From positions 470,834-534,833 of the forward strand of contig JAHIVW010000003.1 in the NCBI GenBank assembly GCA_018816245.1: a stretch of DNA of 64,000 nt, written 5' to 3'. The translations under genes and the position numbers were made by a program. Source of the DNA: Nanobdellota archaeon. GTDB taxonomy: Archaea; Aenigmatarchaeota; Aenigmatarchaeia; QMZP01. Shown piece after piece: positions 4,123 to 54,916 of the stretch. The notes beneath the pieces are model-generated. The model had not been told where the DNA came from. It saw only the letters and a list, made by a program, of their open reading frames with translations, and searched no databases. Positions within the stretch are counted from its first letter, which is position 1; the number at the start of each line of letters is the position of its first letter.

Positions 4123-4186
4123 ACTGATTCTTCGTTCTTGAGACATTAAAATTGGTGATTTAAGCAGGGAAGACCAACTCCTTTTC

Positions 4187-20930: not shown

Positions 20931-20934
20931 AGGA

Positions 20935-27182: not shown

Positions 27183-27183
27183 A

Positions 27184-29198: not shown

Positions 29199-29210
29199 AC
29201 AACAGGGTAG

Positions 29211-29230
29211 ATATAAGTATTTAAATATTA
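29211..29230. promoter_or_regulatory. Bidirectional TATA element (atataagtatttaaatatta) between mvk (minus strand) and the divergent 329-aa gene (plus strand)
   Basis: TTTAAATA consensus at 29220-29227, about 23 nt upstream of both divergent start codons (29198 and 29247). Suggests leaderless transcripts. Confidence 0.5.
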
Positions 29231-29246
29231 GCCCGTAGATGGGGGT

Positions 29247-35296: not shown

Positions 35297-35482
35297 AACG
35301 CGGGGTCTCAGAAGTTTATTCCAAGTTTCATCTTCTTTGTTATCCCAAAGGACTTTGAGAGATGTTTCCGAAAACGTGAGGAAGTCGGCGAACTCGTCTT
35401 TAATATCCTTCGCGGAGTCGGTCATCCTTTCTGATCGTTTGCTTGTTTTGGGGTCCATATGAAAAGAAACGTCTTCTTCCAT
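35288..35482 (-). CDS. Small acidic hypothetical protein (64 aa), weakly supported
   Basis: ORF only. Convergent 9-nt overlap with the Taw2-like gene. Lies downstream of the ACP gene on the same strand. Confidence 0.25.
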   Translation of the reverse strand: MEEDVSFHMDPKTSKRSERMTDSAKDIKDEFADFLTFSETSLKVLWDNKEDETWNKLLRPRVLT

Positions 35483-35644
35483 AAATGGACATGGGTAGGT
35501 TGGTTTCTAAATTCCTTTTTATTCTAGCTAAAACCCGCTGGCTGATAGGATAACACTGTTATAAAGGGCAAGCCACAAGCAACGTCTTGGGGGGGGACGC
35601 TGCCTGTGGACCAAGGAGAACGAAACCGACTGCTAGCGTGGGGG

Positions 35645-35896
35645 TTACGCTAAAAGCTTGCTGACACAGACGACAGCATCGTTGACCGTCCGGATTCTCT
35701 CTCTATCCTCGTCAAGGATGTTGACGTTGAATTCGTCCTCGAGCTCCATCATCAGCTCGACGTGATCGAGCGAGTCGGCGCCGAGATCGTTGATGAAGTC
35801 TGTCTTGGAGTTGACGTTGTCGCGTGATACGCCCAACTGCTCGCAGACGCAGTTGATGACTCTGTCCTGAATATCCTGAACCGATTGCTTTGCCAT
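35645..35896 (-). CDS. acpP: Acyl carrier protein, bacterial AcpP type
   Basis: VCEQLGVSRDNVNSKTDFINDLGADSLDHVELMMELEDEFNVNILDEDRERIRTVNDAV carries the DLGADSLD phosphopantetheine-attachment Ser motif and aligns along its full length with E. coli ACP. Confidence 0.8.
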   Translation of the reverse strand: MAKQSVQDIQDRVINCVCEQLGVSRDNVNSKTDFINDLGADSLDHVELMMELEDEFNVNILDEDRERIRTVNDAVVCVSKLLA

Positions 35897-36099
35897 CGTA
35901 ACCCTTCCTTTCCATCAAAGACTGCAAAAGACGTCCAAAGAACCCGGTTTTCCATCAGCAACCGTCCTGCTGCTCCCCATGTCGAAACCTGTTCCGTGTC
36001 TTGGCTTCGGCCTGTGAATGATCACACCAGAGCAGGCATGACCGGACGATGCAATGATGGATAACCATGAACTATATCGTCAAGATATGACGGTAACGT

Positions 36100-37113
36100 T
36101 TATAACTGTTTCCTGCAGCAAGCGGCCTTGCACCAGTTCGGTTGCACAGTCCCTTCCCGTGCCAAGAGCACGCATCTCGACGGTACCATGCTGTCACGGA
36201 TCTTGTAGGAACTTGTTTTCTCGATTTCTTTTGCAAACGACACAATTTCTCGGTGATAGGGCATGTGGTCCTGCGTCAGCCGGTACTGCGACCCGCCGAC
36301 ATGCACGTAGCCCTTTGCTTCAAGGAAGCGTGGTGAAAACTGATCAGCAAGCTGCGCATATAGGTCAGGATGGAGGAGATTCAGTTTTCGTACCAGCGTG
36401 AGCCTCATTGTGGTTGTCGGGAACTTCTTAAACAATGATAATGATTCCATCAGAAGATCCCACGTATTCGGCAGAATGGGTTTTGTCACCTTCTTGAGAA
36501 TCTCGGGCGTTGGTCCGGCAACGGTCACGTACAGCTGCGTCGGTGGTGTCTTGACCAGTTTCCGTAGCATCGCTGGACTGGTGCCGTTGGTCACGAGGAA
36601 TGTTGTCATACCTCGCTTGTGAATTTCCTGGATCAGTTCAGGGAGGTGCGGATACAATGTTGGTTCACCAGAAAGGGAAATCGCGACATGCTTTGGCTGT
36701 TGCGCTTCTTTGTAAAGTTTTGTTGGTGTTTCTTCGTTGCCACCAAAGCCGCGCAACATCTTGACGTGTTCCTTGATCATGCCGTCGACGATGAATGCTG
36801 GTTCGTCCCAATCGTCCGCTGGGTTGTTATGGAATCGAAGTGTGCGCCAGCAAAAAGAACAGTTCTCGGTGCAGAACTGGACCGTCGGCGTGAACTGAAT
36901 GCACCGCCAGGAATCGATCCCGTAGAATTGTTTTTTGTAGCAAACGTTTTTTCCCCGCAACGACTGCTTGGTCCAGTTGCAGACCTTGATTGCGGAATGC
37001 TTACCGATCAAGCGGTACTGCTGCTTCTCGAGGTTCTTGATCTGGGATGTGGTGAGGGCGTTGGAGGCCATAGGAAGACGTGGCGACTTGGGTTTATGAG
37101 TGGTGTATAACAA
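36100..37113 (-). CDS. taw1: tRNA 4-demethylwyosine synthase Taw1/TYW1 (radical SAM)
   Basis: GKHSAIKVCNWTKQSLRGKNVCYKKQFYGIDSWRCIQFTPTVQFCTENCSFCWR is the TYW1 signature. Confidence 0.85.
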   Translation of the reverse strand: MLYTTHKPKSPRLPMASNALTTSQIKNLEKQQYRLIGKHSAIKVCNWTKQSLRGKNVCYKKQFYGIDSWRCIQFTPTVQFCTENCSFCWRTLRFHNNPADDWDEPAFIVDGMIKEHVKMLRGFGGNEETPTKLYKEAQQPKHVAISLSGEPTLYPHLPELIQEIHKRGMTTFLVTNGTSPAMLRKLVKTPPTQLYVTVAGPTPEILKKVTKPILPNTWDLLMESLSLFKKFPTTTMRLTLVRKLNLLHPDLYAQLADQFSPRFLEAKGYVHVGGSQYRLTQDHMPYHREIVSFAKEIEKTSSYKIRDSMVPSRCVLLAREGTVQPNWCKAACCRKQL

Positions 37114-37115
37114 TG

Positions 37116-37715
37116 TTATACGTCAACACGAATCGAGAATTGTACAAGATTATCACTGAACTGCTCAATCCCCCTATAGACAACTGCGTGCATCCCAACC
37201 TGCTTCGCCCCTTCCACAAACGTCTCACGATCGTCAACAAAGACGCATTCATCTGGCTTTAGGCCTGTCTCAAACACCTTCTGATAAAACCGCGGGTCCG
37301 GCTTCAGCAACCTTTCTTGGCACGAAAAGAGAATCGTGTCAAAGAGTGTATCAAACCCAAGCTTGGTGATTCGTTCAAAGAAGAAGGGATTGTTGTTCGA
37401 GAGAATGATCATTTTGTATCGCGGCTTCAGTTTTTTGATGATCCCAAGAAGCTCGGTGTTCGGTTTCAAATGGGAAAAATAAGTCTTCACATACTTTTTT
37501 TGGTCGATTGAAATTCCAAATTCCTTGTTCAAGCGTTCAAAATACTCGTCAATCGAAATCAATCCGCCATCGAACTTTTTTTCCCGCAGAGACAATTCGA
37601 AGTATGCAAACCGGTCGCGGTCAAGTTGATACTGTTCAGCAAGTGCCGTCCACATTCCTTCAGCATCGAAGAACTCCAGCACGTTTCCCCAGTCAAACAC
37701 GAGCGCCTTTATCAT
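37116..37715 (-). CDS. HAD-like hydrolase
   Basis: MIKALVFDWGNVL (motif I variant), FVDDRETFVEGAKQVGM (motif III). Confidence 0.6.
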   Translation of the reverse strand: MIKALVFDWGNVLEFFDAEGMWTALAEQYQLDRDRFAYFELSLREKKFDGGLISIDEYFERLNKEFGISIDQKKYVKTYFSHLKPNTELLGIIKKLKPRYKMIILSNNNPFFFERITKLGFDTLFDTILFSCQERLLKPDPRFYQKVFETGLKPDECVFVDDRETFVEGAKQVGMHAVVYRGIEQFSDNLVQFSIRVDV

Positions 37716-38220
37716 GGTCGATCTTCTTTCCTCGTTCCTGTGGAATAATCTTCCGCTTCGCATTTGAAAACGATGTCTGCAGCGATCGCTTCCCCAGCGT
37801 CAGATACAAAAACAATGACAGCGCTCCCACTTCCGAATGCGGCTGACTCGTCACTGCAATGTTTTTTGTTGCAAGTTGGTACACCTCAGGCTGCACCTTC
37901 TCTCCACCAACAACAACCAATAAGTCTTTCGTTGAAACGGTTTTTGCAACCTGTTCCACCGGCAACCCGTACACTGTCAGGTGCACGATCTCGCCCTTCC
38001 AGTCCTTGATGAACCGGATCGGATTCTTAACATGCTCCACCGTGAACGTCCCGCCGAACTCTGTTGCAATCCGTTTCGTTGATTGTTCGAGCCCGGTGTC
38101 TCGTTCCCCGGAATAAAAGCCGTTGACCACACCCATAGCGCGCGCAACGAGGAACACGTGCGTGCTCATCCGCTGGTCACGGAACACCCGGTGTCCCAGC
38201 CGCAAAATTGTGACAGTCAT
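37693..38220 (-). CDS. tRNA (cytidine56-2'-O)-methyltransferase aTrm56 (SPOUT)
   Basis: MTVTILRLGHRVFRDQRMSTHVFLVARAMG matches the aTrm56 N-terminus. Length about 175 aa. Confidence 0.7.
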   Translation of the reverse strand: MTVTILRLGHRVFRDQRMSTHVFLVARAMGVVNGFYSGERDTGLEQSTKRIATEFGGTFTVEHVKNPIRFIKDWKGEIVHLTVYGLPVEQVAKTVSTKDLLVVVGGEKVQPEVYQLATKNIAVTSQPHSEVGALSLFLYLTLGKRSLQTSFSNAKRKIIPQERGKKIDHDKGARV

Positions 38221-39815: not shown

Positions 39816-39897
39816 CGCCGGCGGCAGGAGTCGAACCTGCATGTCCAGAGGACACTCGTTTTCGAGACGAGCGCGTTAGCCATTCCGCCACGCCGGC
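39816..39897 (-). tRNA. tRNA-Ser (anticodon CGA), class II with long variable arm
   Basis: Reverse complement GCCGGCG-UG-GCG..CGC-G-CUCGU-CUCGAAA-ACGAG-(14-nt variable arm UGUCCUCUGGACAU)-GCAGG-UUCGACU-CCUGC-CGCCGGC-G. All stems pair. 82 nt. CCA not encoded. Confidence 0.85.
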
Positions 39898-40144: not shown

Positions 40145-41053
40145 ATGGCATCCTGTTCCTGCGGCAAGCCCGCTGTATACTATAAGGCGTATGAGGCGCG
40201 GCTGTACTGCAAAGGTTGTTTCTGCAGAAGCATTGAAAAACGTGTGAAGAAAACGATCACCAAATACAAGCTGCTTCAGTCAAACGACACGGTCGCTGTG
40301 GGATTTTCCAGTGGCAAGGATTCCACATCACTGCTCCATCTCCTCCATGAAATCACCGGGCCCCGGCGCGACATGAAGCTCGTTGCCATCTCCATTGACG
40401 AGGGGATCACCGGCTACCGGGACACGAGCTTGAAGCTCGCAAAGCAGGTCTGTGCGGGGCTTGGTATCGACCATAAGATCGTTTCTTTCAAAGAGGCCTA
40501 CGGCAAGACCCTTGACGATCAGATACCAAAGATCGAACAGGGCAAGGCGTGTACGTATTGCGGGGTTGCACGACGGCAGCTCCTGAACTGGGCAGCCCGC
40601 GAAGCAGGAGCAACCAAACTTGCTGTTGGCCATAATCTCGATGATGAGGTGCAGGCAATTCTCATGAACTGGATCCGCGGTGATCTTGTCCGCGCCAGCC
40701 GTCTGGGAACGCGCACCGAAGGGAATGATCCAAATTTCATTCCCCGCATCAAACCGCTCCGCTTCATTCCTGAACGGGAAACCGCACTTTACGCGTCCCT
40801 GAAAGGGTTTCCTGTTCATCAAGGAGAATGCCCGCACGCAACTGGAATCCGCTTTGATATCCGCGACTTCCTCAACCAGCTTGAAACAACGTATCCCGGG
40901 ACGAAATTTTCCCTTATCGAAGGATTTGAAAAGATCCAACCGTTCCTCACAACAGCCGTTGCGAAAACAACACACCCGATCACACGTTGTGCTTCATGCA
41001 AGGAACCCTCGTCACAGGAACGCTGTAAGGCCTGTGAACTCTGGTCGTATTAA
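40145..41053 (+). CDS. tRNA 2-thiolation PP-loop ATPase, TtuA/NcsA (Ncs6/Ctu1) family
   Basis: N-terminal CxxC...CxxC zinc finger, PP-loop GFSSGKDST, Fe-S ligands CTYCGVARRQ, C-terminal CASCx9CKAC. Confidence 0.8.
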   Translation: MASCSCGKPAVYYKAYEARLYCKGCFCRSIEKRVKKTITKYKLLQSNDTVAVGFSSGKDSTSLLHLLHEITGPRRDMKLVAISIDEGITGYRDTSLKLAKQVCAGLGIDHKIVSFKEAYGKTLDDQIPKIEQGKACTYCGVARRQLLNWAAREAGATKLAVGHNLDDEVQAILMNWIRGDLVRASRLGTRTEGNDPNFIPRIKPLRFIPERETALYASLKGFPVHQGECPHATGIRFDIRDFLNQLETTYPGTKFSLIEGFEKIQPFLTTAVAKTTHPITRCASCKEPSSQERCKACELWSY

Positions 41054-41103: not shown

Positions 41104-44100
41104 ATGAGGCTTGTGTGGGCAAGTTTCGTTCTTTTCGTCGTCCTTCTGAGTGTACCGGGGGTGAGTGCTGCATCACAGCTTTCATGCCGATTTACAACAC
41201 AAGGCGAAGTGTGCCAGAGCGCTCAGGGCGAGATCACCGTCTATCATTTGTTTGATGTAATGAATTCACATATCGAGATGCCATCGCAAACGAAATTCGC
41301 TCAAAACATCTCCTTTTGTTGTAAGGTCAACGACAACTCCAATGTTATTCTCCAAGGCGGCGCTTGTGCTGCCGGGCCCATCATGGGACAAGACAAGATG
41401 ATTCTCATGCGCCTTGCACAAGCAACGGACAGCCATGCACAAAAAACGACCTATACTGGTACCCCTTATACTACTGACCTCTGTCTCGGGATTGCCAATA
41501 CCGGAAAGGGAACCGGGGCCTCCTGTTCGTACAAAACAACCTGTTCGGGAGACGAACTGTGTTTTGGATCAATCAAACAGGATACCAACTCCCATGTTGG
41601 CGATTGTAGCAGCAGCGCCTATGCAACCAAGATCTGTTGTGACCTTGGGTGGGATGTCACTGGTCCGACGGTCCAGTTGGATCCTGTTTCCAGTCCGACC
41701 AGCAACACAGAACCAATCATCACTGGAACAGCAACCGATACCTCGCTTCCCATCTTCCAAGTCTGGGTCAAGATCAATTCAACAGTCACTGGTGACACGA
41801 TCATTGCTGGAAACGCAACGTTGAATACTCCAGGATCGCTGGTGACGAATTTTGTGTTTGCCCCGGAACTCACTACAGTCGATCATTCCTATCTCGTTAC
41901 AATCTATGCAGTTGATAACGGACAAAACAAGGGAGCCGCCAAGACAGCTCCTCTTGTCGTTGATGTAACACCCCCTGTGGTCACACTGAGTACAGCAGCG
42001 AGCGCGACTGCTGACACCACACCCGTATTCTCGTACACCGCCACTGATGCCACGACCCAGATCAAAACGCTCAAATACCAAGTCAAGAAAGCGACAGGAG
42101 GCACGGTTGTTATTGATTGGACAACGATCCAGACACCGAACACCTTCGAAACAGGAACCCTCACTGACGAGACGTATGTGGTCACGCTCCGAGCTACTGA
42201 CTCGGTCGATCTAAGTGCCACCGATGAAGAAATTATTATTATTGACACCAAAGCGCCCACGACCACAGACAATGTTGATGGCAGTGTTACCTATTCGCCG
42301 TCTGGTGTTACTTTTGATCTTAGCTGTAACGATGATTATGGAGGCGTTGCCGGAAGCGGCTGTGCGACCATCAAATGGTGCCTTGCCCCTGGCGATGCTC
42401 AAACACCCTGCACTGTTCAAGAACAGGGGAGCATCGTCGACGGAAAAGTTCTTGTCGCTCCCCCTGAATGTGTCAGTGGTGTCTGTACTTGGAAAATCTT
42501 CTATCGGTCCATTGATGGAGTGGGAAATACAGAAGCGATTAAACAATCAGCTATTATTGTCTTGGATGCCGAGAGTCCGACTTGTACTCTCACAGCGCTC
42601 CCCGCCTACACACCTACAAACACTGTTTCCTTGATATGGACAACAGAAACCGGCTCGTCGGGAACCCCGATTGAAAGTGTTGTGATCCGCTACAAGAAAA
42701 CAGGTGACACGAGTGAAACTGAAGTCCCAGCAACAATATCGCCAACAGCAATCGGGAATCTCGCAACCAACACGGAATACCAGTTTCGCTGTTTGGCAAC
42801 AAGCGGGACCGGGCAGACAGGTTCCAGCACTGCAGTCAAAACATATATCGACACGGTCCCGCCGCGCATCACCGTTTATCCTGTTCCATCGTTCTTGAAT
42901 ACGACCGAGGTTCCCATCTTCTGGCTCGCGAATGATACGAACACAAGTGTCTCCCCGCCAATCGGTTCTGGTGTTGTTTCTTTGACCTTCCAATACCGCG
43001 TGAATGGCGGGACATGGGCAACTTGGAAGGTATTGGAAAAAACAGATCCTGGCTTTTCGACCAACCCAACAACACCACAGAAATTTGGAAAGGATAACAT
43101 TCCTGTTTCACTCACTAGTGGAGCAACCTATGACATTCGTGTTCTTGCAACCGATGCAGCCGGTCATAACAGTCCTGTACCACCGCCAGCAACAGTGCTG
43201 ATTGATTTTGGCAAACCAGTGTGTTCCCTTGACGATCTCCCACCATTCGCGCCGCTTGACGGCGACGCCACGGTTTCGTGGACATCAATTGATACCGGCG
43301 GTTCTGGTGTGGCCTTTGCAACAATCAAGAAGAGTGCGAATCCTCCCAACTGGCAGGACATCCCTCCGGTTGAAAATGACCCAACAGGATCAGAGGTCAT
43401 CGACCTTGCGAACGGGCAAACGGTATTCTTCCAGTGCCGCGCTTTCGATTTTGCGGGAAACAAGGGGGACGCATCGGAGATTGTGTCGCTTTCTGCTGAT
43501 TATGCCGGCCCAACAATCGGCGTTACCACGGCAACGAGTGTAAAGCTGCTCGAAAACCTTTCCGTAGCAGCAACGATTCTTGATCACTTCAATGAAATTG
43601 AAAGTGTCTCATTAACCTTTAACGGGTCGACGGTTGTGACAACGTCAATAACCGCATCGTCTGATAACCAAACCTGGAACGTGACCTGGACAGTTCCGTC
43701 TGCAGGGAAGGGAAAGGGCATCTACTCCTTTTCAATCACGGCAACAGACGCTCTCGGGAACGAGAACACGACAACAAAAACCTTCTCAATCGTCACCTGT
43801 GTTGAAGGATCGACAAAATCATGCGGAAGTAATGTCGGCGTCTGTGAAGCAGGCATCCAACTTTGTGTGGATAACGAGTGGGAGGATTGTCAAAACCAGA
43901 CGTTGCCGACAGTAGAAGTCTGCAATAACAAGGATGATGATTGTGATGGCAGCGCTGATGAAAATCTCACAAAGTCGTGCGGTGGACCGAATATCGGTGT
44001 CTGCAAAGTCGGAATGCAGACATGCTTGGGTGGGGTATGGACCAACTGTATCGGAGCAGTCTACCCTGAAACAAGCGAATTCTGTGGCGACGATCTCGAC

Positions 44101-44541
44101 AATGATTGTGATGGGTCAACGGACGAGCTCTGTGCTTGTTCCCAGGGCGATACCCAAGCATGTGGGAGCGATGTTGGTGTCTGTTCCAAGGGAACCCAAA
44201 CTTGCACGAGTTCCGGTGTCTGGGGAGATTGTGAAGATTCTGTTGATCCTATTCAGGAAATTTGTGGAAACGGAAAGGACGACGACTGTGACGATAGTGT
44301 TGATAATGGTTGTGACGTCGTTGGAACCTGTTCCAACGGGTTTCAAGACGCCAACGAAGCTGGTGTTGACTGCGGTGGGGTGTGTCCAACCAGTTGCGAA
44401 ACCTCGCTCATCGACTCCCCATATTTCATTTTCACCTTGATCGGTGTTGTCATGCTTGTTGCGCTTCTTGGTGTTGTGTTGTTCCTTCGATCACGAGGGA
44501 AAGAATTAACGTGGGATGAAGTCCTGAGCCGCTGGTCGTAA
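41104..44541 (+). CDS. Giant (1145 aa) secreted surface protein with Ig-like beta regions, C-terminal MopE-like Cys-rich repeats and a C-terminal TM anchor
   Basis: Signal MRLVWASFVLFVVLLSVPGVSAAS. Repeats of CxxxxGxCxxGxQxCxxGxWxxC...ExCnnkDDDCDGxxDE at about 43800-44400. TM FIFTLIGVVMLVALLGVVLFLRSRGK. Confidence 0.75.
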   Translation: MRLVWASFVLFVVLLSVPGVSAASQLSCRFTTQGEVCQSAQGEITVYHLFDVMNSHIEMPSQTKFAQNISFCCKVNDNSNVILQGGACAAGPIMGQDKMILMRLAQATDSHAQKTTYTGTPYTTDLCLGIANTGKGTGASCSYKTTCSGDELCFGSIKQDTNSHVGDCSSSAYATKICCDLGWDVTGPTVQLDPVSSPTSNTEPIITGTATDTSLPIFQVWVKINSTVTGDTIIAGNATLNTPGSLVTNFVFAPELTTVDHSYLVTIYAVDNGQNKGAAKTAPLVVDVTPPVVTLSTAASATADTTPVFSYTATDATTQIKTLKYQVKKATGGTVVIDWTTIQTPNTFETGTLTDETYVVTLRATDSVDLSATDEEIIIIDTKAPTTTDNVDGSVTYSPSGVTFDLSCNDDYGGVAGSGCATIKWCLAPGDAQTPCTVQEQGSIVDGKVLVAPPECVSGVCTWKIFYRSIDGVGNTEAIKQSAIIVLDAESPTCTLTALPAYTPTNTVSLIWTTETGSSGTPIESVVIRYKKTGDTSETEVPATISPTAIGNLATNTEYQFRCLATSGTGQTGSSTAVKTYIDTVPPRITVYPVPSFLNTTEVPIFWLANDTNTSVSPPIGSGVVSLTFQYRVNGGTWATWKVLEKTDPGFSTNPTTPQKFGKDNIPVSLTSGATYDIRVLATDAAGHNSPVPPPATVLIDFGKPVCSLDDLPPFAPLDGDATVSWTSIDTGGSGVAFATIKKSANPPNWQDIPPVENDPTGSEVIDLANGQTVFFQCRAFDFAGNKGDASEIVSLSADYAGPTIGVTTATSVKLLENLSVAATILDHFNEIESVSLTFNGSTVVTTSITASSDNQTWNVTWTVPSAGKGKGIYSFSITATDALGNENTTTKTFSIVTCVEGSTKSCGSNVGVCEAGIQLCVDNEWEDCQNQTLPTVEVCNNKDDDCDGSADENLTKSCGGPNIGVCKVGMQTCLGGVWTNCIGAVYPETSEFCGDDLDNDCDGSTDELCACSQGDTQACGSDVGVCSKGTQTCTSSGVWGDCEDSVDPIQEICGNGKDDDCDDSVDNGCDVVGTCSNGFQDANEAGVDCGGVCPTSCETSLIDSPYFIFTLIGVVMLVALLGVVLFLRSRGKELTWDEVLSRWS

Positions 44542-45753
44542 CTACACTTTATAGCGAAGCACTGCCCCGATACCACCAAGTGCCGCAAGCTGTTCGCCTC
44601 TTGGGGTATCGGTTGATATAACCTCAACTGCTGTCCCCATCTGTTCTGCAATCTTGATGAGCTCTTCCGTGACCTCATGTTCGCTTGTGACAGTCATGGT
44701 AATACCACATTGTTCGCATTTTTGTTCAGGGAGCTTCTGTCTCGTGAGGGTCTTGGTCTCCTTCTTCTTGCACGTCGGACAGGTGAGGTCAACCGTTACC
44801 CAGTCGAATTTCTCGGATAGCAGAAGCAGGTCAACAGCACCTGCTTCAAGGATCTTCTTCACTTCTCGGAAGCCGTAGATCGCAAGCCCGGTGTCTTTTG
44901 CAAGCTCCTCGAAATAGCGTTCAAGGATCTGCCTTTCGTGAACTGCAGATGCTTGTTTGATGAGATCTTCACCCCGTTCAACGAGCTCGCGCAGACCGAT
45001 CTCACCGGTATAGGAGGTGCTCACAATCCCGAGGATTTGCTTCTGCAAGCGGTAATCGAGGAACTCCCCGTCAACGAACTGTTCTTTTACGGGCCCAGGC
45101 CCGCCGACGATGATGCCTTTCAAATCTTTCTCTTCCATGAATTTTTCCGAGGCAATAGCACCGACCTTTTTGATGAATTCATGCAACGCCTGTTCCCGAA
45201 TCCGTTCATACCGGTGCTGCGACCACCCACCTGCCTGTGTCTTTCCTGGAACTGTTGAGGTCAGGGTTTTGATTTTCTTGATGCGTTTGCCCCGGAGCAT
45301 GCCAATGGTCGCATCGCTCTTGTCAACAATAATCAGCCCGTAGATCTCGCGCTCCCGGATCATGTCCAGCAACGGGTCCACGATAAATGTCTGGTCGCAT
45401 CGGTACAAGCGAACCTGCAAGGGCTCTGGGGGTTCGAACGACCAGAGTTGGATATCATCCACCCCTTCCTTGTCAGATACGTTCCCGCACAGGACAACAA
45501 GCCCGTTTGGTGGTGTCTGGGAATGGGTCTTCAGATGCTGGAGGATCTTTTCCAGTGCACTGACAACATTCTTTCTGGTTGCCTTGCTCTTGATATTGGT
45601 TGCTGTGGACTGTTCAGAGCGCAATTGGTCCACGACCTTCGTCATTTGGTAGCCTGCAGGAATGTACACACTGACCAGTTCCGTGTGCCTTCCTCGCAGG
45701 ACTGCGAGCTCCTTTACTAAAGCTGTGAATTGGCGCTTTTTGGTGTCGTCCAT
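44542..45753 (-). CDS. prf1: Peptide chain release factor aRF1 (eRF1 family). The GGQ position reads GGW. True start MDDTKKRQ at 45753; the six-frame ORF is over-extended to 46068.
   Basis: NIKS motif (TATNIKSKATRKNV), YxCxxxF (YRCDQTF), domain-2 motif GKTQAGGWSQHRYERIR, C-terminal domain 3 with a zinc-ribbon insert (CPTCx14CEQC). Confidence 0.8.
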   Translation of the reverse strand: MDDTKKRQFTALVKELAVLRGRHTELVSVYIPAGYQMTKVVDQLRSEQSTATNIKSKATRKNVVSALEKILQHLKTHSQTPPNGLVVLCGNVSDKEGVDDIQLWSFEPPEPLQVRLYRCDQTFIVDPLLDMIREREIYGLIIVDKSDATIGMLRGKRIKKIKTLTSTVPGKTQAGGWSQHRYERIREQALHEFIKKVGAIASEKFMEEKDLKGIIVGGPGPVKEQFVDGEFLDYRLQKQILGIVSTSYTGEIGLRELVERGEDLIKQASAVHERQILERYFEELAKDTGLAIYGFREVKKILEAGAVDLLLLSEKFDWVTVDLTCPTCKKKETKTLTRQKLPEQKCEQCGITMTVTSEHEVTEELIKIAEQMGTAVEVISTDTPRGEQLAALGGIGAVLRYKV

Positions 45754-45819: not shown

Positions 45820-46515
45820 GTGTTCATGGACCGGGTGAAAACATACATTGAAGGACTTGATACGATTCTTAGTGGCGGCATCCCGGAAAATCAAGTCGTC
45901 CTCCTCACTGGAACGAGCGGTACTGGCAAAACTATCCTGTCCTCCCAGTACATGTACAACGGCGCCATGAAGAACCAGCCAGGCGTCTACCTCTCGTTTG
46001 AAGAGCCAGCCTCCATGATCCGGGAGAACATGAAGGAGTTTGGCATGGACTTCGCCAAACTTGAGCACGCCAAAAAGTTCGCCTTCATGAAATACGAGCC
46101 TTATCGTATTGAGGATATCAATGAAATGTTGGAATCAACTATTCGTGAGATTGGTGCCCGCCGGGTGGTTATTGATTCCGTTTCAGCACTCGGCCTTCAC
46201 ATCCGTGATCAGGCGGCACTCCGAGAATTGATCTTCAAACTATCGATCACACTCCGTAATTTAAATTGCACGACAATTATGGTCTCGGAAATTGTCCAGG
46301 GAAAAAGCCCTCGCCTCTCCCGTTATGGTGTTGAGGAATTCGTTGCTGATGGTGTGATTGTCCTTTATTACGAACGCTTCCAGAGCACCTTCAACCGCGG
46401 GATCCAGGTTTGGAAGCTCCGGGGAAGCAGCCATTCCATGAAGATTCATCCCTATGTTATTGACAAGAAGGGTATAACCGTCAACCCTGAAGATGATATG
46501 TTCATTCGAACGTGA
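45820..46515 (+). CDS. KaiC/RecA-superfamily ATPase, FlaH-like
   Basis: Walker A LLTGTSGTGKT, Walker B RVVIDSVSAL. Size of 231 aa and position directly upstream of a FlaI-like ATPase. Confidence 0.7.
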   Translation: MFMDRVKTYIEGLDTILSGGIPENQVVLLTGTSGTGKTILSSQYMYNGAMKNQPGVYLSFEEPASMIRENMKEFGMDFAKLEHAKKFAFMKYEPYRIEDINEMLESTIREIGARRVVIDSVSALGLHIRDQAALRELIFKLSITLRNLNCTTIMVSEIVQGKSPRLSRYGVEEFVADGVIVLYYERFQSTFNRGIQVWKLRGSSHSMKIHPYVIDKKGITVNPEDDMFIRT

Positions 46516-46548
46516 AAGGCCTTTTAAGGCCTCGTTTGCTCATTACAT

Positions 46549-48255
46549 ATGAGTATGCCTTCAATGAAGTTTTCAAAATTTCGGGGGTCACTTCGTAATA
46601 AAATCAAGCGTGTCACCACAACGAAGCAGTATCCTCCGTTCCAGGTCCGGGAAACCCGCCATCTCATCATTCTTCCCGCCTACACTGATTGTAAGAAGAT
46701 TGATGTTCGCTATCCGTTACTCGAGCCGTTCGCGCATGCCCACGTCTACTGGATGCCCGAGGAAAAGCGTATCCAGTATGATGTTGTGCAACCCGAACTG
46801 ACCGATGAAGACGAATTGAACCTTGATAAAATCGAAAAGGCGCTCCTTGAACTGATTGATGTCAAGATTTCCGTGGTCAAGGAAGAAACCGCGACAATTG
46901 AGTACCTTGAACAGAAAGTGACGAGCATTATCGACGAACTCGATATCACCCTGCCGCTCGATCGCTATGCGCGCATTATGTATTACATTTATCGCGACTT
47001 CTTCGGGATCAATGAACTCGAACCATTGATGCACGACCCGTACATCGAAGACATCGACTGTTCTGGTCTGAACAGCCCGGTGTTCATTACCCACCGCCGG
47101 TTCGGCAATATCCAGACCAATGTCATCTTTCAGGATGCTGATGTATTTTCCAAGTTCATTATTAAACTCTCCGAGCGCGCTGGCCGCTACATCTCCTATG
47201 CAAGCCCACTTTTGGATGGGAGCCTCCCCGATGGCAGCCGTATCCAGGCGTCCCTTGCCCGCGATGTCACAACGCGCGGTCCCACCTTTTCCATCCGCCG
47301 CTTCCGAAGGAATCCATTTTCCCCGATTGATATCATGAACATGAAGACTGCGTCTTCGCTTGTCATGGCATACATGTGGTTTGTCGTCCAATATAGTGCG
47401 AGCATCCTCATCACGGGCGGTGTTTCCACAGGGAAAACAACCCTGCTTAACACACTTTCGATGTTCATTCCTCCCGAAGACAGGATCATCTCTATCGAAG
47501 ATACTCGCGAAATCAACCTCCCTCACGAGAACTGGGTCCCGTCTGTGTCACGAACAGGGTTCGGTGTCCCACAAGCGTCAGGAAAAAAATACGGCGAAGT
47601 CGATCTGTTTGATTTGCTCAAGGAATCCTTCCGGCAGAACCCCGATTACGTGATTGTCGGAGAGGTCCGGGGAAAAGAAGCCTATGTCCTCTTCCAAGGG
47701 ATGTCCAGCGGGCACCCGTCAATTGGCACCATCCACGCCGGAAGTGCTGATGATGTTATCAAGCGTCTGGAAACCCCTCCCATTGAATTATCAACATCGC
47801 TCATCGAAGCGCTTGATGTGTTGGTAGTGATGACGTCTGCGCGCGAGAAAGGTGAATCTGCCCGCCGGATCAAAGAAGTTGTTGAAATCCAATCAATTGA
47901 CGCGAAAACAGGAAGGGCGCACACCATCAAGAGCTTTGGGTGGATCCCGTCAACTGATGCTTTCAAGGAAAATCTTATTGACTCCGAAGTGCTGAAGCGG
48001 ATTTCATTTGAGCGTGGCATGTCGTTCGCAACGATCCTCGAAGAAATCACCCGCCGGCAGCATATTTTGGAATGGATGCAGAAATTTAATGTTGTTCAGT
48101 TTGGTGACGTGGCTCAGCTGATCAATTTGTACTATAAGGATCCAGCGACTATCCTGAAATGGGTTTCAAGTGGAGAACCGCCAGTTCAGCGGACAACCAA
48201 GAAAGGGGTGCTTGAAACTACAACAACTGGTCTCAGGGTCCTGAGGAACCCATGA
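46549..48255 (+). CDS. Type II/IV secretion-system ATPase, archaeal FlaI/PilB (VirB11/TadA) family
   Basis: Walker A ITGGVSTGKTTLLNTLS, Asp box RIISIEDTREI, Walker B DYVIVGEVRGKEA, His box. 568 aa as for FlaI. Confidence 0.8.
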   Translation: MSMPSMKFSKFRGSLRNKIKRVTTTKQYPPFQVRETRHLIILPAYTDCKKIDVRYPLLEPFAHAHVYWMPEEKRIQYDVVQPELTDEDELNLDKIEKALLELIDVKISVVKEETATIEYLEQKVTSIIDELDITLPLDRYARIMYYIYRDFFGINELEPLMHDPYIEDIDCSGLNSPVFITHRRFGNIQTNVIFQDADVFSKFIIKLSERAGRYISYASPLLDGSLPDGSRIQASLARDVTTRGPTFSIRRFRRNPFSPIDIMNMKTASSLVMAYMWFVVQYSASILITGGVSTGKTTLLNTLSMFIPPEDRIISIEDTREINLPHENWVPSVSRTGFGVPQASGKKYGEVDLFDLLKESFRQNPDYVIVGEVRGKEAYVLFQGMSSGHPSIGTIHAGSADDVIKRLETPPIELSTSLIEALDVLVVMTSAREKGESARRIKEVVEIQSIDAKTGRAHTIKSFGWIPSTDAFKENLIDSEVLKRISFERGMSFATILEEITRRQHILEWMQKFNVVQFGDVAQLINLYYKDPATILKWVSSGEPPVQRTTKKGVLETTTTGLRVLRNP

Positions 48256-48398
48256 AGCGCTGCCCGGTGTGCAAAGGCACGGATATCACCCTCATGATTG
48301 GGGGCATCACTGGTAAGTTCCAGTGCCGCTGCGGCTATCAGGGCCCGCTCGTGATCGAAGACGAGAAGGGTGTTTATAAAAAGAAAGGCCATCATTAA
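48252..48398 (+). CDS. Small zinc-ribbon protein (48 aa), start overlapping the FlaI-like stop (ATGA)
   Basis: MKRCPVCKGTDITLMIGGITGKFQCRCGYQGPLVIEDEKGVYKKKGHH (CxxC ... CxC). Under 60 aa, so absent from the ORF track. Confidence 0.35.
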   Translation: MKRCPVCKGTDITLMIGGITGKFQCRCGYQGPLVIEDEKGVYKKKGHH

Positions 48399-48417
48399 TC
48401 TCAACCTTTGTGATCTC

Positions 48418-49953
48418 ATGGCACTCAAGGAATCCTATCTGCGGGTCTTAGAGCTCTTGCCTTCTATCCGGGACCCAGAACAAAAGCAATCTCTCCGCAC
48501 GCGGCTGAAGTGGACCGGGCTCATCCTGATCCTCTTCTTCATTATGGGGCAGACCTTTGTCTACGGGGTCGATCCAGGGAGTGCCCAGCAGCTCCGGTTC
48601 CTGGAGATTCTTTTGGGATCATCCTTTGGGTCGCTCATGAGTCTTGGCATCGGCCCGGTCGTGACCGCCAGTATCATCTTGCAGCTGCTCGTGGGATCAA
48701 AAATCATTCCGATTAACGTGACGTCGCCTGATGGGCGGCGGCTCTTCCAGGGAACACAGAAACTCTTGGCAATCCTCCTTTCCTTCATCGAAGGAGCGGT
48801 CTATGTGCTCTTTGGTGCTGTCCCTGCATCTGACCCGTCTTTCGTCTGGCTTGTGATCCTCCAACTCGCCGCCGGTGGTATTATTGTCGTCTACATGGAC
48901 GAGATCATCCAGAAATGGGGATTCGGCAGCGGGATCTCTCTCTTTATCGTTGCCGGTGTCGCCAAAACAATCATTGTCCGAACCTTTAATCCATTGACCC
49001 AAGCAGGAGGCTTCCCGGGACCAGGAAACCCACCATCAGGCATCATTCCCTTCATGATTACAACCATTATTGAGGGTCAACCTCTCCAGGCGCTCTTTGC
49101 AGCATTACCGCTTCTGGCAACCATTATCGTCTTCCTGATTGCGGTGTATGCCAACGAGATCAAAGTTGAAGTCCCGCTCGCATACGGCAACCTCCGCGGA
49201 TTCGGCCGCCGCTGGCCACTGAAGTTCCTCTACACGTCGAACATTCCTGTCATCCTGATTGCAGCGCTTTTGGCGAACATCCTCCTCTTCGGGAGAATGA
49301 TGGCAAACAGCGGCCAGGAATGGATCGGCCAGTTCGATGCCAATGGCAACCCTATTGGCGGCCTCATCTACCTCCTTACCCCACCCAGCACGATTGAGGT
49401 CACGGGTGTGATGATCACAATTGGGTTGTTCGCGCTCCTCGGTGCGTTTGTCGCGAACACGATCAAGCAGTCAGCCCTCAAGATCACCGCAGGGTTCGGG
49501 GTCCTTGGTATTGTTGTCTGGTATGCGCTAATATTTTCCCTCAATCTTTCGTCTCTTGCCGTCATCCCACTGATCGACTTCGCCCGGCTCGGGTTGTATG
49601 CCGCTGTCCTTATTGGCGGGTCAATGCTCTTCTCGTACTTCTGGATGACCACTGCGGGAATGGATCCAAAATCAGTCGCAAACCAGATCGACAACATTGG
49701 GATGCAGATTCCTGGCTACCGACGTGATGTGCGCATCATTGAAGGGGTCTTGCAGCGGTACATTCCTGCACTTACCATCCTTGGAGGTGCAGCAATCGGG
49801 ATGCTTGCCTCGTATGCAGATTTCACGAATGCGATTGGAACAGGCACGGGGATTCTCCTGGCAGCCTTGATCATTTACCAGTTCTACGAACAGCTTGCAG
49901 CGCAGCAACTCGAAGATCTGAACCCAGCGCTGCGGAAGTTCCTCGGGCAGTAG
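48418..49953 (+). CDS. secY: Preprotein translocase subunit SecY (Sec61 alpha)
   Basis: SecY signature SLMSLGIGPVVTASIILQLL, second signature region GSGISLFIVAGVAKTII, 10-TM topology, N-terminus like archaeal SecY. Start MALKESYLRVLELLPSIR at 48418. Confidence 0.9.
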   Translation: MALKESYLRVLELLPSIRDPEQKQSLRTRLKWTGLILILFFIMGQTFVYGVDPGSAQQLRFLEILLGSSFGSLMSLGIGPVVTASIILQLLVGSKIIPINVTSPDGRRLFQGTQKLLAILLSFIEGAVYVLFGAVPASDPSFVWLVILQLAAGGIIVVYMDEIIQKWGFGSGISLFIVAGVAKTIIVRTFNPLTQAGGFPGPGNPPSGIIPFMITTIIEGQPLQALFAALPLLATIIVFLIAVYANEIKVEVPLAYGNLRGFGRRWPLKFLYTSNIPVILIAALLANILLFGRMMANSGQEWIGQFDANGNPIGGLIYLLTPPSTIEVTGVMITIGLFALLGAFVANTIKQSALKITAGFGVLGIVVWYALIFSLNLSSLAVIPLIDFARLGLYAAVLIGGSMLFSYFWMTTAGMDPKSVANQIDNIGMQIPGYRRDVRIIEGVLQRYIPALTILGGAAIGMLASYADFTNAIGTGTGILLAALIIYQFYEQLAAQQLEDLNPALRKFLGQ

Positions 49954-53860: not shown

Positions 53861-54916
53861 ATGGCTCCTGAAACAAACTTCAGCGGAAAACAAACCAAGG
53901 CGCGGAAAGCCGATCATATCCGGATCTGCCTGACCAAGGACGTGAACTTCAAAAAAGGGGCAGGCTTTGACCAGTTCACCTTTGACGCGGTCTCCCTGCA
54001 ACATAATGCGCTCCCTGAAGTGAAACGTGCTGAGATCGACACGAGCACATCCTTTCTGAACAAACCGTTCCGTGCGCCACTGCTGATCAGCCCCATGGTT
54101 GGAGGAACCGAGGAAGCAGAACGGCTGAATAAGCACCTTGCAACAGCAGCTGAGCGGCTCGGTCTTGGAATGGGAGTAGGATCCCAGCGGGCAATGCTCA
54201 AGGATCCGAGTCTTGTCAAGACCTATCTCATCCGGGACGTGGCTCCCTCGATCTTCCTTGCCGGGAATATCGGCGGCGCCCAGCTCCTTGAGTCAACGCC
54301 AAAGGAGATCATTAACCTGGCAACGCAGATCGAGGCTGATGCCCTGTACGTGCACCTGAACCCCGCCCAGGAGCTGGCGCAGCCAGAAGGGGACACGGAC
54401 TGGCGGCAAGTAACCGAACGGATTCGCGTGTTAGCCAAGGCAGCCCCGTTCCCGATTCTCATCAAAGAAGTGGGGAACGGCATCTCTGGTGCTGTTGCCT
54501 CCCGGCTCGTGAAGAACGGTGTTGCGGCCATTGATGTCGCTGGTGCCGGAGGGACGAACTGGGTGAAGGTAGAGCATCACCGCCAGTCTGAAGGATCAGC
54601 ACGGGCAAAACCGTTTTTTGAATGGGGGGTGCCGACGAGCGACTGCATTATCCAAGTCCGGCAGGCAGAACCATTGATTCCCTTGATCGCGTCCGGCGGG
54701 ATCCGGACCGGGAGTGATGTTGCAAAGGCGATTGCACTGGGAGCAAACCTCGCAGGGATTGCAAAACCCTTGCTGCAACCAGCAACGGAAAGCGCGGATG
54801 CAGTGCAGAAAACCCTTGAAACCATTATTGAAGAACTCAAGGATGTGATGTTCTTGGTTGGGGTGAAGTGTATTGCGGATCTTGGAAGCGCAACAATTAG
54901 TGAGAAAGGGAAATAA
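53861..54916 (+). CDS. fni: Isopentenyl-diphosphate delta-isomerase type 2 (FMN-dependent IDI-2)
   Basis: KADHIRICL, ALPEVKRAEIDTSTSFLNKPFRAPLLISPMVGGTEEAERLNKHLATAAERLGLGMGVGSQR, and the glycine-rich FMN-binding C-terminal half. Confidence 0.85.
   Translation: MAPETNFSGKQTKARKADHIRICLTKDVNFKKGAGFDQFTFDAVSLQHNALPEVKRAEIDTSTSFLNKPFRAPLLISPMVGGTEEAERLNKHLATAAERLGLGMGVGSQRAMLKDPSLVKTYLIRDVAPSIFLAGNIGGAQLLESTPKEIINLATQIEADALYVHLNPAQELAQPEGDTDWRQVTERIRVLAKAAPFPILIKEVGNGISGAVASRLVKNGVAAIDVAGAGGTNWVKVEHHRQSEGSARAKPFFEWGVPTSDCIIQVRQAEPLIPLIASGGIRTGSDVAKAIALGANLAGIAKPLLQPATESADAVQKTLETIIEELKDVMFLVGVKCIADLGSATISEKGK

What the first reader, a model, noticed from the sequence alone, without database searches (positions are those of the whole stretch)
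45223..45231. aRF1 reads GGW at the position of the universal catalytic GGQ motif
The minus-strand gene 44542-45753 is unmistakably aRF1: NIKS loop TATNIKSKATRKNV, YxCxxxF as YRCDQTF, and C-terminal domain 3. Its domain-2 motif reads GKTQAGGWSQHRYERIR. The reverse complement of 45223-45231 is ggt ggg tgg, so the glutamine that positions the hydrolytic water in every class-I release factor is a tryptophan here. TGG differs from CAA/CAG at two positions, so this is not a one-base miscall. Three readings follow. First, the sole aRF1 has an unprecedented catalytic variant. Second, it is a paralogue that still recognises stop codons but cannot release the peptide, which would make it a candidate readthrough or recoding factor or a ribosome-rescue decoy. 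Third, it is an assembly artefact.
Basis: partly seen in the sequence, partly recalled or inferred. Interest (0 to 1): 0.7.

Follow-up and report, generated by a model that had tools for sequence, protein, structure and literature searches.

The report
Archaeal release factor with GGW motif
The protein that ends translation in this archaeon has tryptophan where every textbook release factor has its "catalytic" glutamine; the change is real, is conserved across a whole lineage of tiny DPANN archaea (relatives carry methionine or phenylalanine instead), and sits in what looks like their normal, working release factor.

Summary
The minus-strand gene 44542-45753 is a full-length aRF1 (TIGR03676, 499 bits against a cutoff of 235). 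It has NIKS, YxCxxxF and a GILRY-like C-terminus. GGT GGG TGG (GGW) aligns exactly with the GGQ of solved aRF1 and eRF1 structures.

It is not an artefact. 117 of the 120 closest database homologues (54-65% identical, from many independent metagenomes) also read GGW. Sister branches read GGM or GGF. The rest of the catalytic loop (V-P-x-K...G-G-x-S..R..R) is invariant in all 132 W/M/F sequences.

It is probably not an extra paralogue:
- In 80 species genomes, no assembly shows two aRF1 loci.
- GGW, GGM and GGQ genes of Aenigmatarchaeota-type genomes occupy the same position, directly downstream of valyl-tRNA synthetase. A remnant of this arrangement survives in the window.

All three stop codons are in use.

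Best reading: this is the lineage's orthologous, working release factor. A bulky hydrophobic side chain takes over the packing role of (methyl-)glutamine in the peptidyl-transferase centre, and catalysis rests on the Gly-Gly backbone. I found no paper describing this. Release activity, single-copy status in whole genomes and the fate of the Gln methyltransferase Mtq2 remain untested.

The parts
44542..45753 (-). aRF1 gene (403 aa, ATG 45753, TAG stop 44542-44544), the only aRF1/Pelota-family ORF in the 64-kb window
   Evidence: Pfam eRF1_1/2/3. TIGR03676 scores 499 bits against a cutoff of 234.7. 100% identical to the NCBI MAG protein P0001. The AF2 model has TM 0.79 to 4af1 and to ribosome-bound eRF1. 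It is the only hit of an aRF1 HMM in six-frame ORFs of the window.
45223..45231 (-). GGW tripeptide (G175 G176 W177). The W codon TGG is at 45223-45225, in the column of the GGQ glutamine.
   Evidence: Sequence, alignment to 4af1, 3agk and human eRF1, and the family-wide column count.
45202..45252 (-). Catalytic-loop segment V168-R184 (VPGKTQAGGWSQHRYER). V168, P169, K171, G175, G176, S178, R181 and R184 are invariant in all 132 W/M/F-type sequences, as in GGQ-type aRF1.
   Evidence: Per-column counts.
45586..45597 (-). NIKS stop-codon recognition motif (residues 53-56)
   Evidence: Sequence. N 132/132, I 130/132, K 132/132 and S 130/132 in the W/M/F group.
45385..45405 (-). YxCxxxF motif (Y117-F123, YRCDQTF)
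   Evidence: Sequence. Y, C and F are invariant in 132/132.
44707..44781 (-). CxxC...CxxC zinc-ribbon-like insert in domain 3 (C325, C328, C346, C349)
   Evidence: These columns are invariant in alignment A1. They align to the equivalent insert of Halobacterium aRF1 4af1.
44545..44574 (-). C-terminal GILRY-like motif (GGIGAVLRYKV), the region that contacts the class-II factor in eRF1/aRF1
   Evidence: Sequence. R and Y/F are conserved across the group. The functional role is taken from Atkinson et al. 2008 (PMC2613156).
54897..57296 (-). Valine-tRNA ligase gene, on the same strand and 9.1 kb upstream of aRF1. It is a remnant of the ValRS-to-aRF1 gene pair that is adjacent in related GGW, GGM and GGQ genomes.
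   Evidence: NF009687 scores 815 bits against a cutoff of 738. 51% identical to the gene directly upstream of the GGW aRF1 in L023. Synteny table.

Best explanation
This is the organism's ordinary, orthologous class-I release factor (aRF1). It belongs to a large DPANN clade, labelled mostly Candidatus Aenigmatarchaeota, in which the glutamine of the 'universal' GGQ motif has been replaced by tryptophan; sister branches carry Met or Phe. It most likely still recognises UAA, UAG and UGA through NIKS/YxCxxxF and inserts the Gly-Gly loop into the peptidyl-transferase centre to trigger peptidyl-tRNA hydrolysis. In this reading, catalysis depends on the glycine-enabled backbone conformation and the main-chain amide at position 3. 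The bulky hydrophobic side chain performs the packing and water-selecting role that N5-methyl-glutamine plays elsewhere.

Shown here: the residue is real, conserved and under selection; the gene is a positional orthologue of GGQ aRF1; the loop and the decoding motifs are intact; three stop codons are in use.

Inferred: retained release activity; the packing mechanism; that methylation by Mtq2 has become unnecessary.
For: (1) The protein is a full aRF1: TIGR03676 at 499 bits (cutoff 234.7), three eRF1 domains, and a fold matching 4af1 and accommodated eRF1 at TM 0.79-0.80.
(2) GGW is a clade trait. 117 of the 120 nearest 90%-identity clusters, from NCBI, JGI, ENA and Logan, read GGW. After intein excision, the 268 aRF1s collected (a set biased towards relatives of the query) read W 129, Q 119, M 7, F 3.
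(3) The W/M/F sequences form essentially one group in an NJ tree. One GGQ sequence (P0116) is nested inside it, and W or F arises separately in P0156, P0159 and P0150.
(4) The loop is under strong constraint. V168, P169, K171, G175, G176, S178, R181 and R184 are 132/132 invariant, and NIK, Y-C-F and the C-terminal R-Y/F are conserved.
(5) Orthology by position. ValRS lies directly upstream on the same strand in GGW loci (L023, and partly L003), in GGM loci (L015, L031, L042) and in 12 GGQ loci. TatD lies downstream in both GGM and GGQ loci. The window keeps ValRS on the same strand.
(6) None of the 80 GTDB-species loci (14 GGW, 4 GGM, 62 GGQ) come from the same assembly, and the nearest GGQ sister sequences map to other genomes.
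(7) The 51 window ORFs end in TAA 21, TAG 20 and TGA 10.
(8) Published mechanism. The glycines are indispensable because of their backbone torsions, and the Gln side chain has a 'packing role' enhanced by methylation (PMC5799190). The Gln backbone amide catalyses hydrolysis (PMC6742477). A Gln mutation in human eRF1 does not abolish activity (title of Seit-Nebi 2000, cited in PMC2613156).
Against: No biochemical data exist for any GGW, GGM or GGF factor. I could not scan a complete GGW genome, so a second, more divergent GGQ-bearing aRF1 or another peptidyl-tRNA hydrolase cannot be excluded. Reviews and experiments treat the GGQ glutamine as universally conserved and methylated, including in archaea (PMC6144793; PMC2613156), and from my own recollection Gln substitutions are lethal in yeast. 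A Trp is much larger than methyl-Gln and cannot offer the side-chain carbonyl thought to orient the water. No specific compensating substitutions stood out in the protein, and the rRNA could not be examined.
Confidence: 0.72

Rival explanations
1. The GGW protein is an additional paralogue that binds stop codons but cannot hydrolyse (a decoy, readthrough or recoding factor, or rescue factor). A canonical GGQ aRF1 elsewhere in the genome would do the real termination.
For: The side-chain chemistry of the canonical catalytic residue is lost. Both GGQ and GGW aRF1s are found under the label Aenigmatarchaeota. Only 64 kb of a contig of at least 555 kb was visible, so the rest of the genome is unchecked.
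Against: GGW/GGM and GGQ genes occupy the same ValRS-adjacent position in different genomes. No assembly appears twice among the 80 loci, although Aenigmatarchaeota-type GGQ copies score well inside the reported range. The protein scores as the aRF1 equivalog. Branch lengths are not elevated. The GG loop, S178, R181 and R184 are 132/132 invariant, whereas non-hydrolysing relatives such as Pelota have lost the loop (PMC2613156). DPANN genomes are small and rarely keep redundant translation factors (own knowledge).
Confidence: 0.08
2. The GGW aRF1 is the sole stop-codon reader but no longer catalyses hydrolysis. It recruits ABCE1 to split the ribosome, and the peptidyl-tRNA is cleaved by another enzyme such as Pth2 or a Vms1-like aVLRF1.
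For: The glutamine is absent. aeRF1-superfamily hydrolases acting on split subunits are known (PMC6514570). Nothing here measures activity.
Against: If the loop no longer had to enter the peptidyl-transferase centre, the absolute conservation of G175, G176, S178, R181 and R184, and of W itself across sequences as little as 35% identical, would be unexplained. Published work assigns catalysis to backbone groups and a packing role to the side chain. No candidate partner gene lies near aRF1 in the window or in the 80 loci.
Confidence: 0.1
3. The W is only apparent: an assembly or sequencing error, or TGG is decoded as (or edited to) glutamine in this organism.
For: TGG differs from CAG at only two bases. 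Read data were not available.
Against: A second assembler gives the identical 21-kb sequence. 129 homologues from many samples carry W, and others carry M (ATG) or F (TTC) at the same column. Other Trp positions of the protein align with W/F/Y in GGQ-type homologues (position 103), so TGG behaves as Trp.
Confidence: 0.01

Closest known systems
Canonical archaeal aRF1 (e.g. Halobacterium salinarum 4AF1, Aeropyrum pernix 3AGK) and eukaryotic eRF1
   Same: Same three-domain architecture and fold (TM 0.79). Same NIKS, YxCxxxF and GILRY-like motifs, the same Zn-ribbon insert in domain 3 as 4AF1, and the same invariant loop residues K171, G175, G176, S178, R181 and R184. 38% identity to 4AF1.
   Different: The third residue of the GGQ motif is Trp (Met or Phe in sister lineages). 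It therefore cannot be N5-methylated by Mtq2 as shown for Haloferax aRF1 (PMC6144793). The clade also prefers GKT over GKH before the motif and RY-A over RF-E after it.
Engineered or mutant release factors altered in GGQ (eRF1 AAQ used for cryo-EM; Gln substitutions in eRF1 and bacterial RF1/RF2)
   Same: They show that the motif can be separated into parts. Gly changes kill activity, whereas Gln changes leave partial activity, consistent with backbone catalysis plus side-chain packing (PMC5799190, PMC6742477, and the Seit-Nebi 2000 title via PMC2613156).
   Different: Those are laboratory mutants with reduced fitness or activity. Here a non-Gln residue is the naturally fixed, conserved state of a whole lineage.
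Pelota/Dom34 (aRF1 paralogue for ribosome rescue)
   Same: Homologous domains 2 and 3 (TIGR00111 partial match over residues 140-403). Both lack the catalytic glutamine.
   Different: Pelota lacks NIKS, YxCxxxF and the entire GGQ loop (PMC2613156). The window protein keeps all of these, and its Pelota score is 99 bits against a cutoff of 177.65.
Balon / Rv2629-type aeRF1-like ribosome hibernation factors and bacterial baeRF/VLRF1 families
   Same: They are aeRF1-superfamily proteins that enter the A site, and some lack GGQ. They give weak matches to the window protein.
   Different: The scores are far below the cutoffs (50.9 against 320; 49.7 against 125). Those families lack the stop-codon motifs, and they are bacterial or have a GxuQ or GGxSQ loop (PMC6514570).

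Membership tests
aRF1/eRF1 orthologous family (TIGR03676) | Full-length match to the equivalog model above its curated cutoff, with eRF1_1, eRF1_2 and eRF1_3 domains in order | tested here: met
   499.1 bits against a cutoff of 234.7, covering model positions 2-403. Pfam E-values are 4e-16, 5e-42 and 1.6e-27.
aRF1/eRF1 orthologous family (TIGR03676) | Stop-codon recognition motifs NIKS and YxCxxxF in domain 1 | tested here: met
   TATNIKSK and YRCDQTF are present and conserved in 130-132 of 132 clade members.
aRF1/eRF1 orthologous family (TIGR03676) | Gly-Gly at the tip of domain 2, with the conserved flanks K...GG.S..R..R | tested here: met
   K171, G175, G176, S178, R181 and R184 are invariant in 132/132.
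aRF1/eRF1 orthologous family (TIGR03676) | Glutamine as the third residue of GGQ, described as universally conserved and N5-methylated | tested here: not met
   W177 aligns to the Q of 4af1, 3agk and human eRF1. This is why I file the gene as a variant of the family (an orthologue by homology and position) and not as a typical member.
aRF1/eRF1 orthologous family (TIGR03676) | Three-dimensional fold of aRF1/eRF1 | tested here: met
   AF2 pLDDT 85.2. Foldseek gives 4af1 at E 7e-42 and TM 0.79, and 3jag/5lzv eRF1 at TM 0.79-0.80.
aRF1/eRF1 orthologous family (TIGR03676) | Orthology: same genomic position as canonical aRF1 in related genomes | tested here: met
   The ValRS-aRF1 pair occurs in GGW (L023, L003), GGM (L015, L031, L042) and 12 GGQ loci. 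The window's ValRS is 51% identical and on the same strand.
aRF1/eRF1 orthologous family (TIGR03676) | Single aRF1 per genome | tested here: inconclusive
   There are no duplicate assemblies among the 80 loci, and only one family member in the 64-kb window.
aRF1/eRF1 orthologous family (TIGR03676) | Stop-codon-dependent peptidyl-tRNA hydrolysis | not testable with these tools
   Requires biochemistry or genetics.
Pelota/Dom34 (TIGR00111) | Match above the curated cutoff, and absence of the NIKS and GGQ loops | tested here: not met
   99.3 bits against a cutoff of 177.65, over domains 2-3 only. The NIKS and GG loops are present.
aeRF1-like hibernation factors (Rv2629/Balon, NF052289/NF052288) | Match above the curated cutoff | tested here: not met
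   50.9 against 320, and 31.3 against 480.

The most novel reading that the evidence does not exclude
An entire archaeal lineage terminates all its proteins with a release factor that has no catalytic glutamine. A hydrophobic residue (Trp, Met or Phe) fills the peptidyl-transferase-centre pocket in place of N5-methyl-Gln. That would make the Mtq2 methylation system dispensable, and it would show in vivo that the 'universal' Gln side chain is not required for peptide release. A further, more speculative twist concerns the intein that sits exactly between this residue and Ser178 in many relatives. Because residue 177 is the intein's -1 position, splicing efficiency may have helped drive or permit the Q-to-W/M/F switches.
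Probability: 0.55. Interest if true: 0.85.

Novelty: new variant of a known kind. Interest (0 to 1): 0.77.

Why it matters
GGQ is the one motif shared by all class-I release factors in bacteria, archaea, eukaryotes and organelles. It is called universally conserved, and dedicated enzymes in all three domains methylate its glutamine. What that side chain does has been debated for 25 years: orienting the water, excluding other nucleophiles, or merely packing. A natural, widely conserved GGW/GGM/GGF release factor that appears to be the only one in its genomes is a ready-made experiment. If it is active, the glutamine side chain and its methylation are not mechanistically essential, and backbone catalysis plus packing suffices. 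It would also give a lineage marker for part of the Aenigmatarchaeota. It predicts loss or retargeting of Mtq2. It offers new release-factor scaffolds for engineering termination. Annotation pipelines currently name these proteins 'aRF-1' without flagging the change.

Tried and rejected
(1) Assembly artefact: rejected (identical second assembly, clade-wide conservation).

(2) A shifted alignment hiding a true GGQ elsewhere in domain 2: rejected. Three PDB alignments and an HMM alignment put W on Q, and there is no other GGQ.

(3) Search for compensating substitutions. Columns that differ most between the W/M/F and Q groups are scattered and confounded by phylogeny. Only the RY-A versus RF-E preference lies near the loop, so this was uninformative.

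(4) Synteny using the window's immediate neighbours (KaiC-like ATPase, T2SSE ATPase, 1145-aa surface protein). These are shared only with the three closest relatives. An unbiased clustering of flanking ORFs was needed to reveal the ValRS/TatD synteny, and several 'families' in that clustering were antisense shadow ORFs that I discarded.

(5) Looking for Mtq2 (NPPY methyltransferase): none in the window ORFs or in the 83 fetched loci. This says nothing about the whole genome.

(6) The codon of the GGQ sequence nested in the GGW clade (P0116): its DNA was not retrievable.

(7) Key primary papers (Shaw and Green 2007; Seit-Nebi 2001) are not held. Statements about them rest on citing papers or on my own knowledge and are marked as such.

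(8) Five full-text searches (GGW / GGM motif / GGQ with DPANN, Aenigmarchaeota or other DPANN phyla / intein with aRF1) found no description of the variant. A sixth search (aRF1 with DPANN) returned only unrelated vesicle papers.

(9) I ran no further search on a contig-length cross-check for second copies, because only 120 hits are listed and the power would be low.
Full report
**Observation.** The minus-strand ORF from ATG 45753 to TAG 44542 encodes 403 aa. Codons 175-177, the reverse complement of 45223-45231, are GGT GGG TGG, and the local peptide is VPGKTQAGGWSQHRYERIR. The ORF listing extends the frame to a GTG at 46068. That extension overlaps the divergent KaiC-like gene, and no homologue has it. 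The exact 403-aa protein is in NCBI as 'MAG: peptide chain release factor aRF-1 [Nanoarchaeota archaeon]', on a contig of 555,152 bp.

**Identity of the gene.**
- Pfam finds eRF1 domains 1, 2 and 3 in order.
- The NCBIfam aRF1/eRF1 equivalog TIGR03676 scores 499 bits against a cutoff of 234.7 over its full length. Pelota (99 against 178) and the aeRF1-like hibernation factors (51 against 320) fall far short.
- phmmer against PDB sequences aligns the protein end to end with Halobacterium aRF1 4af1 (E 2e-87), Aeropyrum aRF1 3agk and human eRF1. In all three, W177 sits on the Q of GGQ, with both glycines, Ser+1 and the two arginines in register.
- An AlphaFold model built from a 27-sequence alignment has mean pLDDT 85. 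It matches 4af1 and ribosome-bound, accommodated eRF1 (3jag, 5lzv) at TM 0.79-0.80. The GGW tip is the least confident block, as expected for this flexible loop.

The column assignment is therefore secure, and there is no alternative GGQ in domain 2.

**Not an artefact, and not a singleton.**
- Of the 120 best 90%-identity clusters in a 5.8-billion-protein collection (54-65% identical to the query; from NCBI, JGI, ENA and Logan assemblies), 117 read GGW and one reads GGQ. Two carry an intein at the motif, and these also read GGW.
- An exhaustive HMMER search of 50%-identity representatives gave a broader sample. I aligned all 268 sequences to an aRF1 HMM and corrected for inteins. The residue in the Q column was then W 129, Q 119, M 7, F 3, E 2, with single occurrences of S, A and others. 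These counts are biased towards relatives of the query and are not a census of archaea.
- A second assembler's contig (Logan, SRR6514274) is identical to the window over 21,212 bp.
- Among 126 full-length GGW sequences, mean pairwise identity is 63% (minimum 35%), yet W never varies. Trp has a single codon, so this is direct evidence of purifying selection.

**Where it occurs.** A neighbour-joining tree places the main GGW clade, and a sub-clade that reads GGW, GGF or GGM, in one large group. One GGQ sequence (P0116) is nested among GGW sequences; its best matches are GGW loci at 59-62% identity. W or F appears independently in three other lineages: P0156, P0159 (nearest to Micrarchaeota-like loci) and P0150.

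A pattern scan of one genome per GTDB species returned 80 loci:
- 14 read GGW (L002-L010, L014, L017, L021-L023). Ten of these are labelled Candidatus Aenigmatarchaeota, the rest 'uncultured archaeon'.
- 4 read GGM (L015, L024, L031, L042).
- 62 read GGQ. These include other Aenigmatarchaeota (among them the complete chromosome CP066684), Woesearchaeota, Nanohaloarchaeota, Thermococci and others.

The trait therefore marks part of the Aenigmatarchaeota-type DPANN radiation, not DPANN as a whole. The window's closest named relatives are Aenigmatarchaeota, despite the NCBI label 'Nanoarchaeota archaeon'.

**Orthologue or paralogue?** This is the main rival reading, and I could not scan a complete GGW genome. 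Five lines of evidence bear on it.

1. All 80 loci come from different assemblies. Aenigmatarchaeota-type GGQ aRF1s score 44-49% identity to the query, well inside the reported range, and match the scan patterns. A regular second copy should therefore have shown up. The caveat is that the scan stopped at 600 rows and used two peptide patterns.
2. Synteny supports orthology. Clustering the flanking ORFs showed a roughly 790-aa class-I aminoacyl-tRNA synthetase directly upstream of aRF1 on the same strand. It occurs in GGW loci (L023, and partly L003), in GGM loci (L015, L031, L042) and in 12 GGQ loci (L027, L028, L029, L030, L032, L034, L035, L037, L040, L043, L045, L078). A TatD hydrolase lies downstream in both GGM and GGQ loci.
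3. The window keeps a remnant of this arrangement. Its 799-aa gene at 54897-57296 is valine-tRNA ligase (815 bits against a cutoff of 738). It is 51% identical to the L023 neighbour and lies on the same strand as aRF1, now 9.1 kb away. The GGW and GGM genes thus occupy the ancestral aRF1 position.
4. The nearest GGQ sister sequences (P0132, P0147) map to separate Aenigmatarchaeota genomes with the same synteny. The Q/W split therefore looks like speciation, not duplication.
5. Nothing else of the aRF1/Pelota family is present in the 64-kb window.

**Is it still a release factor?** Within the 132 W/M/F sequences, V168, P169, K171, G175, G176, S178, R181 and R184 are invariant. So are N, K of NIKS and Y, C, F of YxCxxxF, and the C-terminal R-Y/F is kept. 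This is the conservation pattern of canonical aRF1. It is the opposite of Pelota, which does not hydrolyse and has lost the whole loop (PMC2613156). The 51 main ORFs of the window end in TAA (21), TAG (20) and TGA (10), and ORFs of 1000-1500 aa are uninterrupted. The organism therefore uses the standard three stops.

**Mechanism (inference).** Published structures and kinetics attribute the absolute requirement for the two glycines to backbone torsions that only Gly can adopt. They assign catalysis to the main-chain amide of the third residue. They give the Gln side chain a packing role that N5-methylation enhances (PMC5799190; PMC6742477). A Russian-language paper cited by Atkinson et al. reports in its title that mutating this Gln in human eRF1 does not abolish activity. 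From my own knowledge, Shaw and Green (2007) found that most Gln substitutions in RF1 slow hydrolysis only modestly but relax discrimination against nucleophiles other than water; that paper is not held.

A large hydrophobic side chain could supply the packing and the exclusion of other nucleophiles without methylation. The residues that replace Q here are W, M and F, never small or charged ones within the main clade, which fits a packing role. I therefore commit to the following: GGW aRF1 is the working release factor, the indole replaces methyl-Gln in the peptidyl-transferase centre, and the backbone does the chemistry. My confidence is about 0.7. The prediction that Mtq2 is lost or retargeted is untested. 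No NPPY methyltransferase lies in the window or in the fetched loci, which is uninformative for whole genomes.

**Evolutionary notes.** Every switch between CAR (Gln), TGG (Trp), ATG (Met) and TTY (Phe) needs at least two substitutions, passing through Arg, Leu, Lys, Cys or a stop codon. In the fetched loci the codons are Q = CAG 37 and CAA 25, W = TGG 16, M = ATG 4 and F = TTC 1. Several such switches, plus the nested GGQ, suggest that this position is more tolerant in this lineage than the textbook view allows.

About 60 of the 150 representatives from the 50%-identity search carry an intein (about 130-570 aa) inserted exactly between residue 177 and Ser178 (GGx|C...HN|S). This occurs in GGQ, GGW, GGM and GGF types alike. 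Residue 177 is thus the intein's -1 residue, and selection for splicing may have interacted with selection for release. This is speculation. The count is also inflated, because fast-evolving inteins split sequences into many clusters.

**Comparison with the literature.** Full-text searches for GGW or GGM motifs with release factors, for GGQ with DPANN, Aenigmarchaeota or other DPANN phyla, and for inteins with aRF1 found no description of this variant. A search for aRF1 with DPANN returned only unrelated vesicle papers. Burroughs and Aravind's survey of the aeRF1 superfamily does not mention it. Atkinson et al. 2008 and van Tran et al. 2018 both call GGQ universally conserved in a/eRF1, and the latter proposes Gln methylation for archaea in general. 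The library is incomplete, so prior mention elsewhere cannot be excluded.

**Verdict.** The paralogue reading is disfavoured, and the artefact reading is refuted. This is a new variant of a known kind (aRF1). It is of high interest to the translation field because it challenges the universality of GGQ and makes the role of the Gln side chain and its methylation directly testable. The remaining uncertainty is functional (no assay) and genomic (no complete GGW genome scanned).

Noticed in passing
Protein ids P0058, P0060, P0121-P0124, P0126, P0128-P0130, P0132, P0134, P0135, P0137-P0139, P0146-P0148 and about 40 more; not in the window: About 60 of the 150 aRF1 representatives carry an intein (about 130-570 aa, Cys1 ... 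His-Asn | Ser+1) inserted exactly between the third residue of GGQ/GGW/GGM/GGF and the following Ser, i.e. in the catalytic tip. A full-text search for intein with aRF1 found no paper describing this.
   Followed up: partly
Loci L015, L024, L031, L042 (GGM); proteins P0150, P0123, P0153 (GGF); P0252, P0260 (GGE); P0268 (GGA); P0197 (GGS before an intein): Other non-Gln residues occur at the GGQ position in archaeal aRF1 homologues. GGM forms a coherent sub-clade with the context PSK(S/T)VKGGMSQ.RYDR. The GGE, GGA and GGS cases are isolated and were not checked for paralogy or sequence quality.
   Followed up: partly
L044, L053, L057, L072, L077 (Woesearchaeota-labelled genomes); L021-L023, L034, L054: Woesearchaeota aRF1s read NIKD instead of NIKS (with GGQ intact). 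One Aenigmatarchaeota-type sub-group reads NVKS. Atkinson et al. 2008 already note that the S of NIKS can be D, L or N.
   Followed up: no
window 1123-4188 (-): An ATP-dependent DNA ligase of 1021 aa. The N-terminal domain (residues 25-197) and the adenylation domain (714-880) are separated by about 500 aa containing a LAGLIDADG_3 match, which is most likely an intein in the ligase. So this genome hosts an intein, but not in its aRF1.
   Followed up: partly
window 41104-44541 (+), 16377-20996 (-), 5227-7893 (-), 20935-22788 (-), 14942-16372 (-): Several very large ORFs (1145, 1539, 888, 617 and 476 aa) have no family match or only faint ones. The 1145-aa protein has a signal-like N-terminus, Ig/FN3-like repeats, Cys-rich MopE-like motifs and a C-terminal transmembrane segment, and it ends exactly where the aRF1 gene ends (convergent, abutting stops at 44541/44542). 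These are probably DPANN surface or adhesion proteins.
   Followed up: no
window 45820-49953 (+) and 63426-63941 (-): A KaiC-like ATPase (45820-46515), a T2SSE/FlaI-type ATPase (46549-48255) and SecY (48370-49953) lie between ValRS and aRF1 on the opposite strand, and a T2SSF-like fragment lies at the window end. The KaiC + T2SSE pair next to aRF1 is shared only with the three closest relatives (L002, L005, L009), so it is a recent rearrangement of the ValRS-aRF1 pair.
   Followed up: partly
window 26076-29762 (-), 53861-54916 (+): Mevalonate-pathway kinases (a phosphomevalonate kinase of the Gram-positive type, 219 bits against a cutoff of 166, and a 530-aa mevalonate kinase with an N-terminal extension of about 190 aa), plus an FMN-dependent dehydrogenase (possibly type-2 IPP isomerase). 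The bacterial-type PMK in a DPANN archaeon may reflect gene transfer.
   Followed up: no
window 34490-38220: A cluster of tRNA-modification genes: TRM5/TYW2-type methyltransferase (34490-35296), radical-SAM wyosine-formation enzyme (36100-37113) and aTrm56 (37693-38220), with tRNA-Ser(CGA) at 39816-39897 and a PP-loop tRNA thiolase-like gene at 40145-41053.
   Followed up: no
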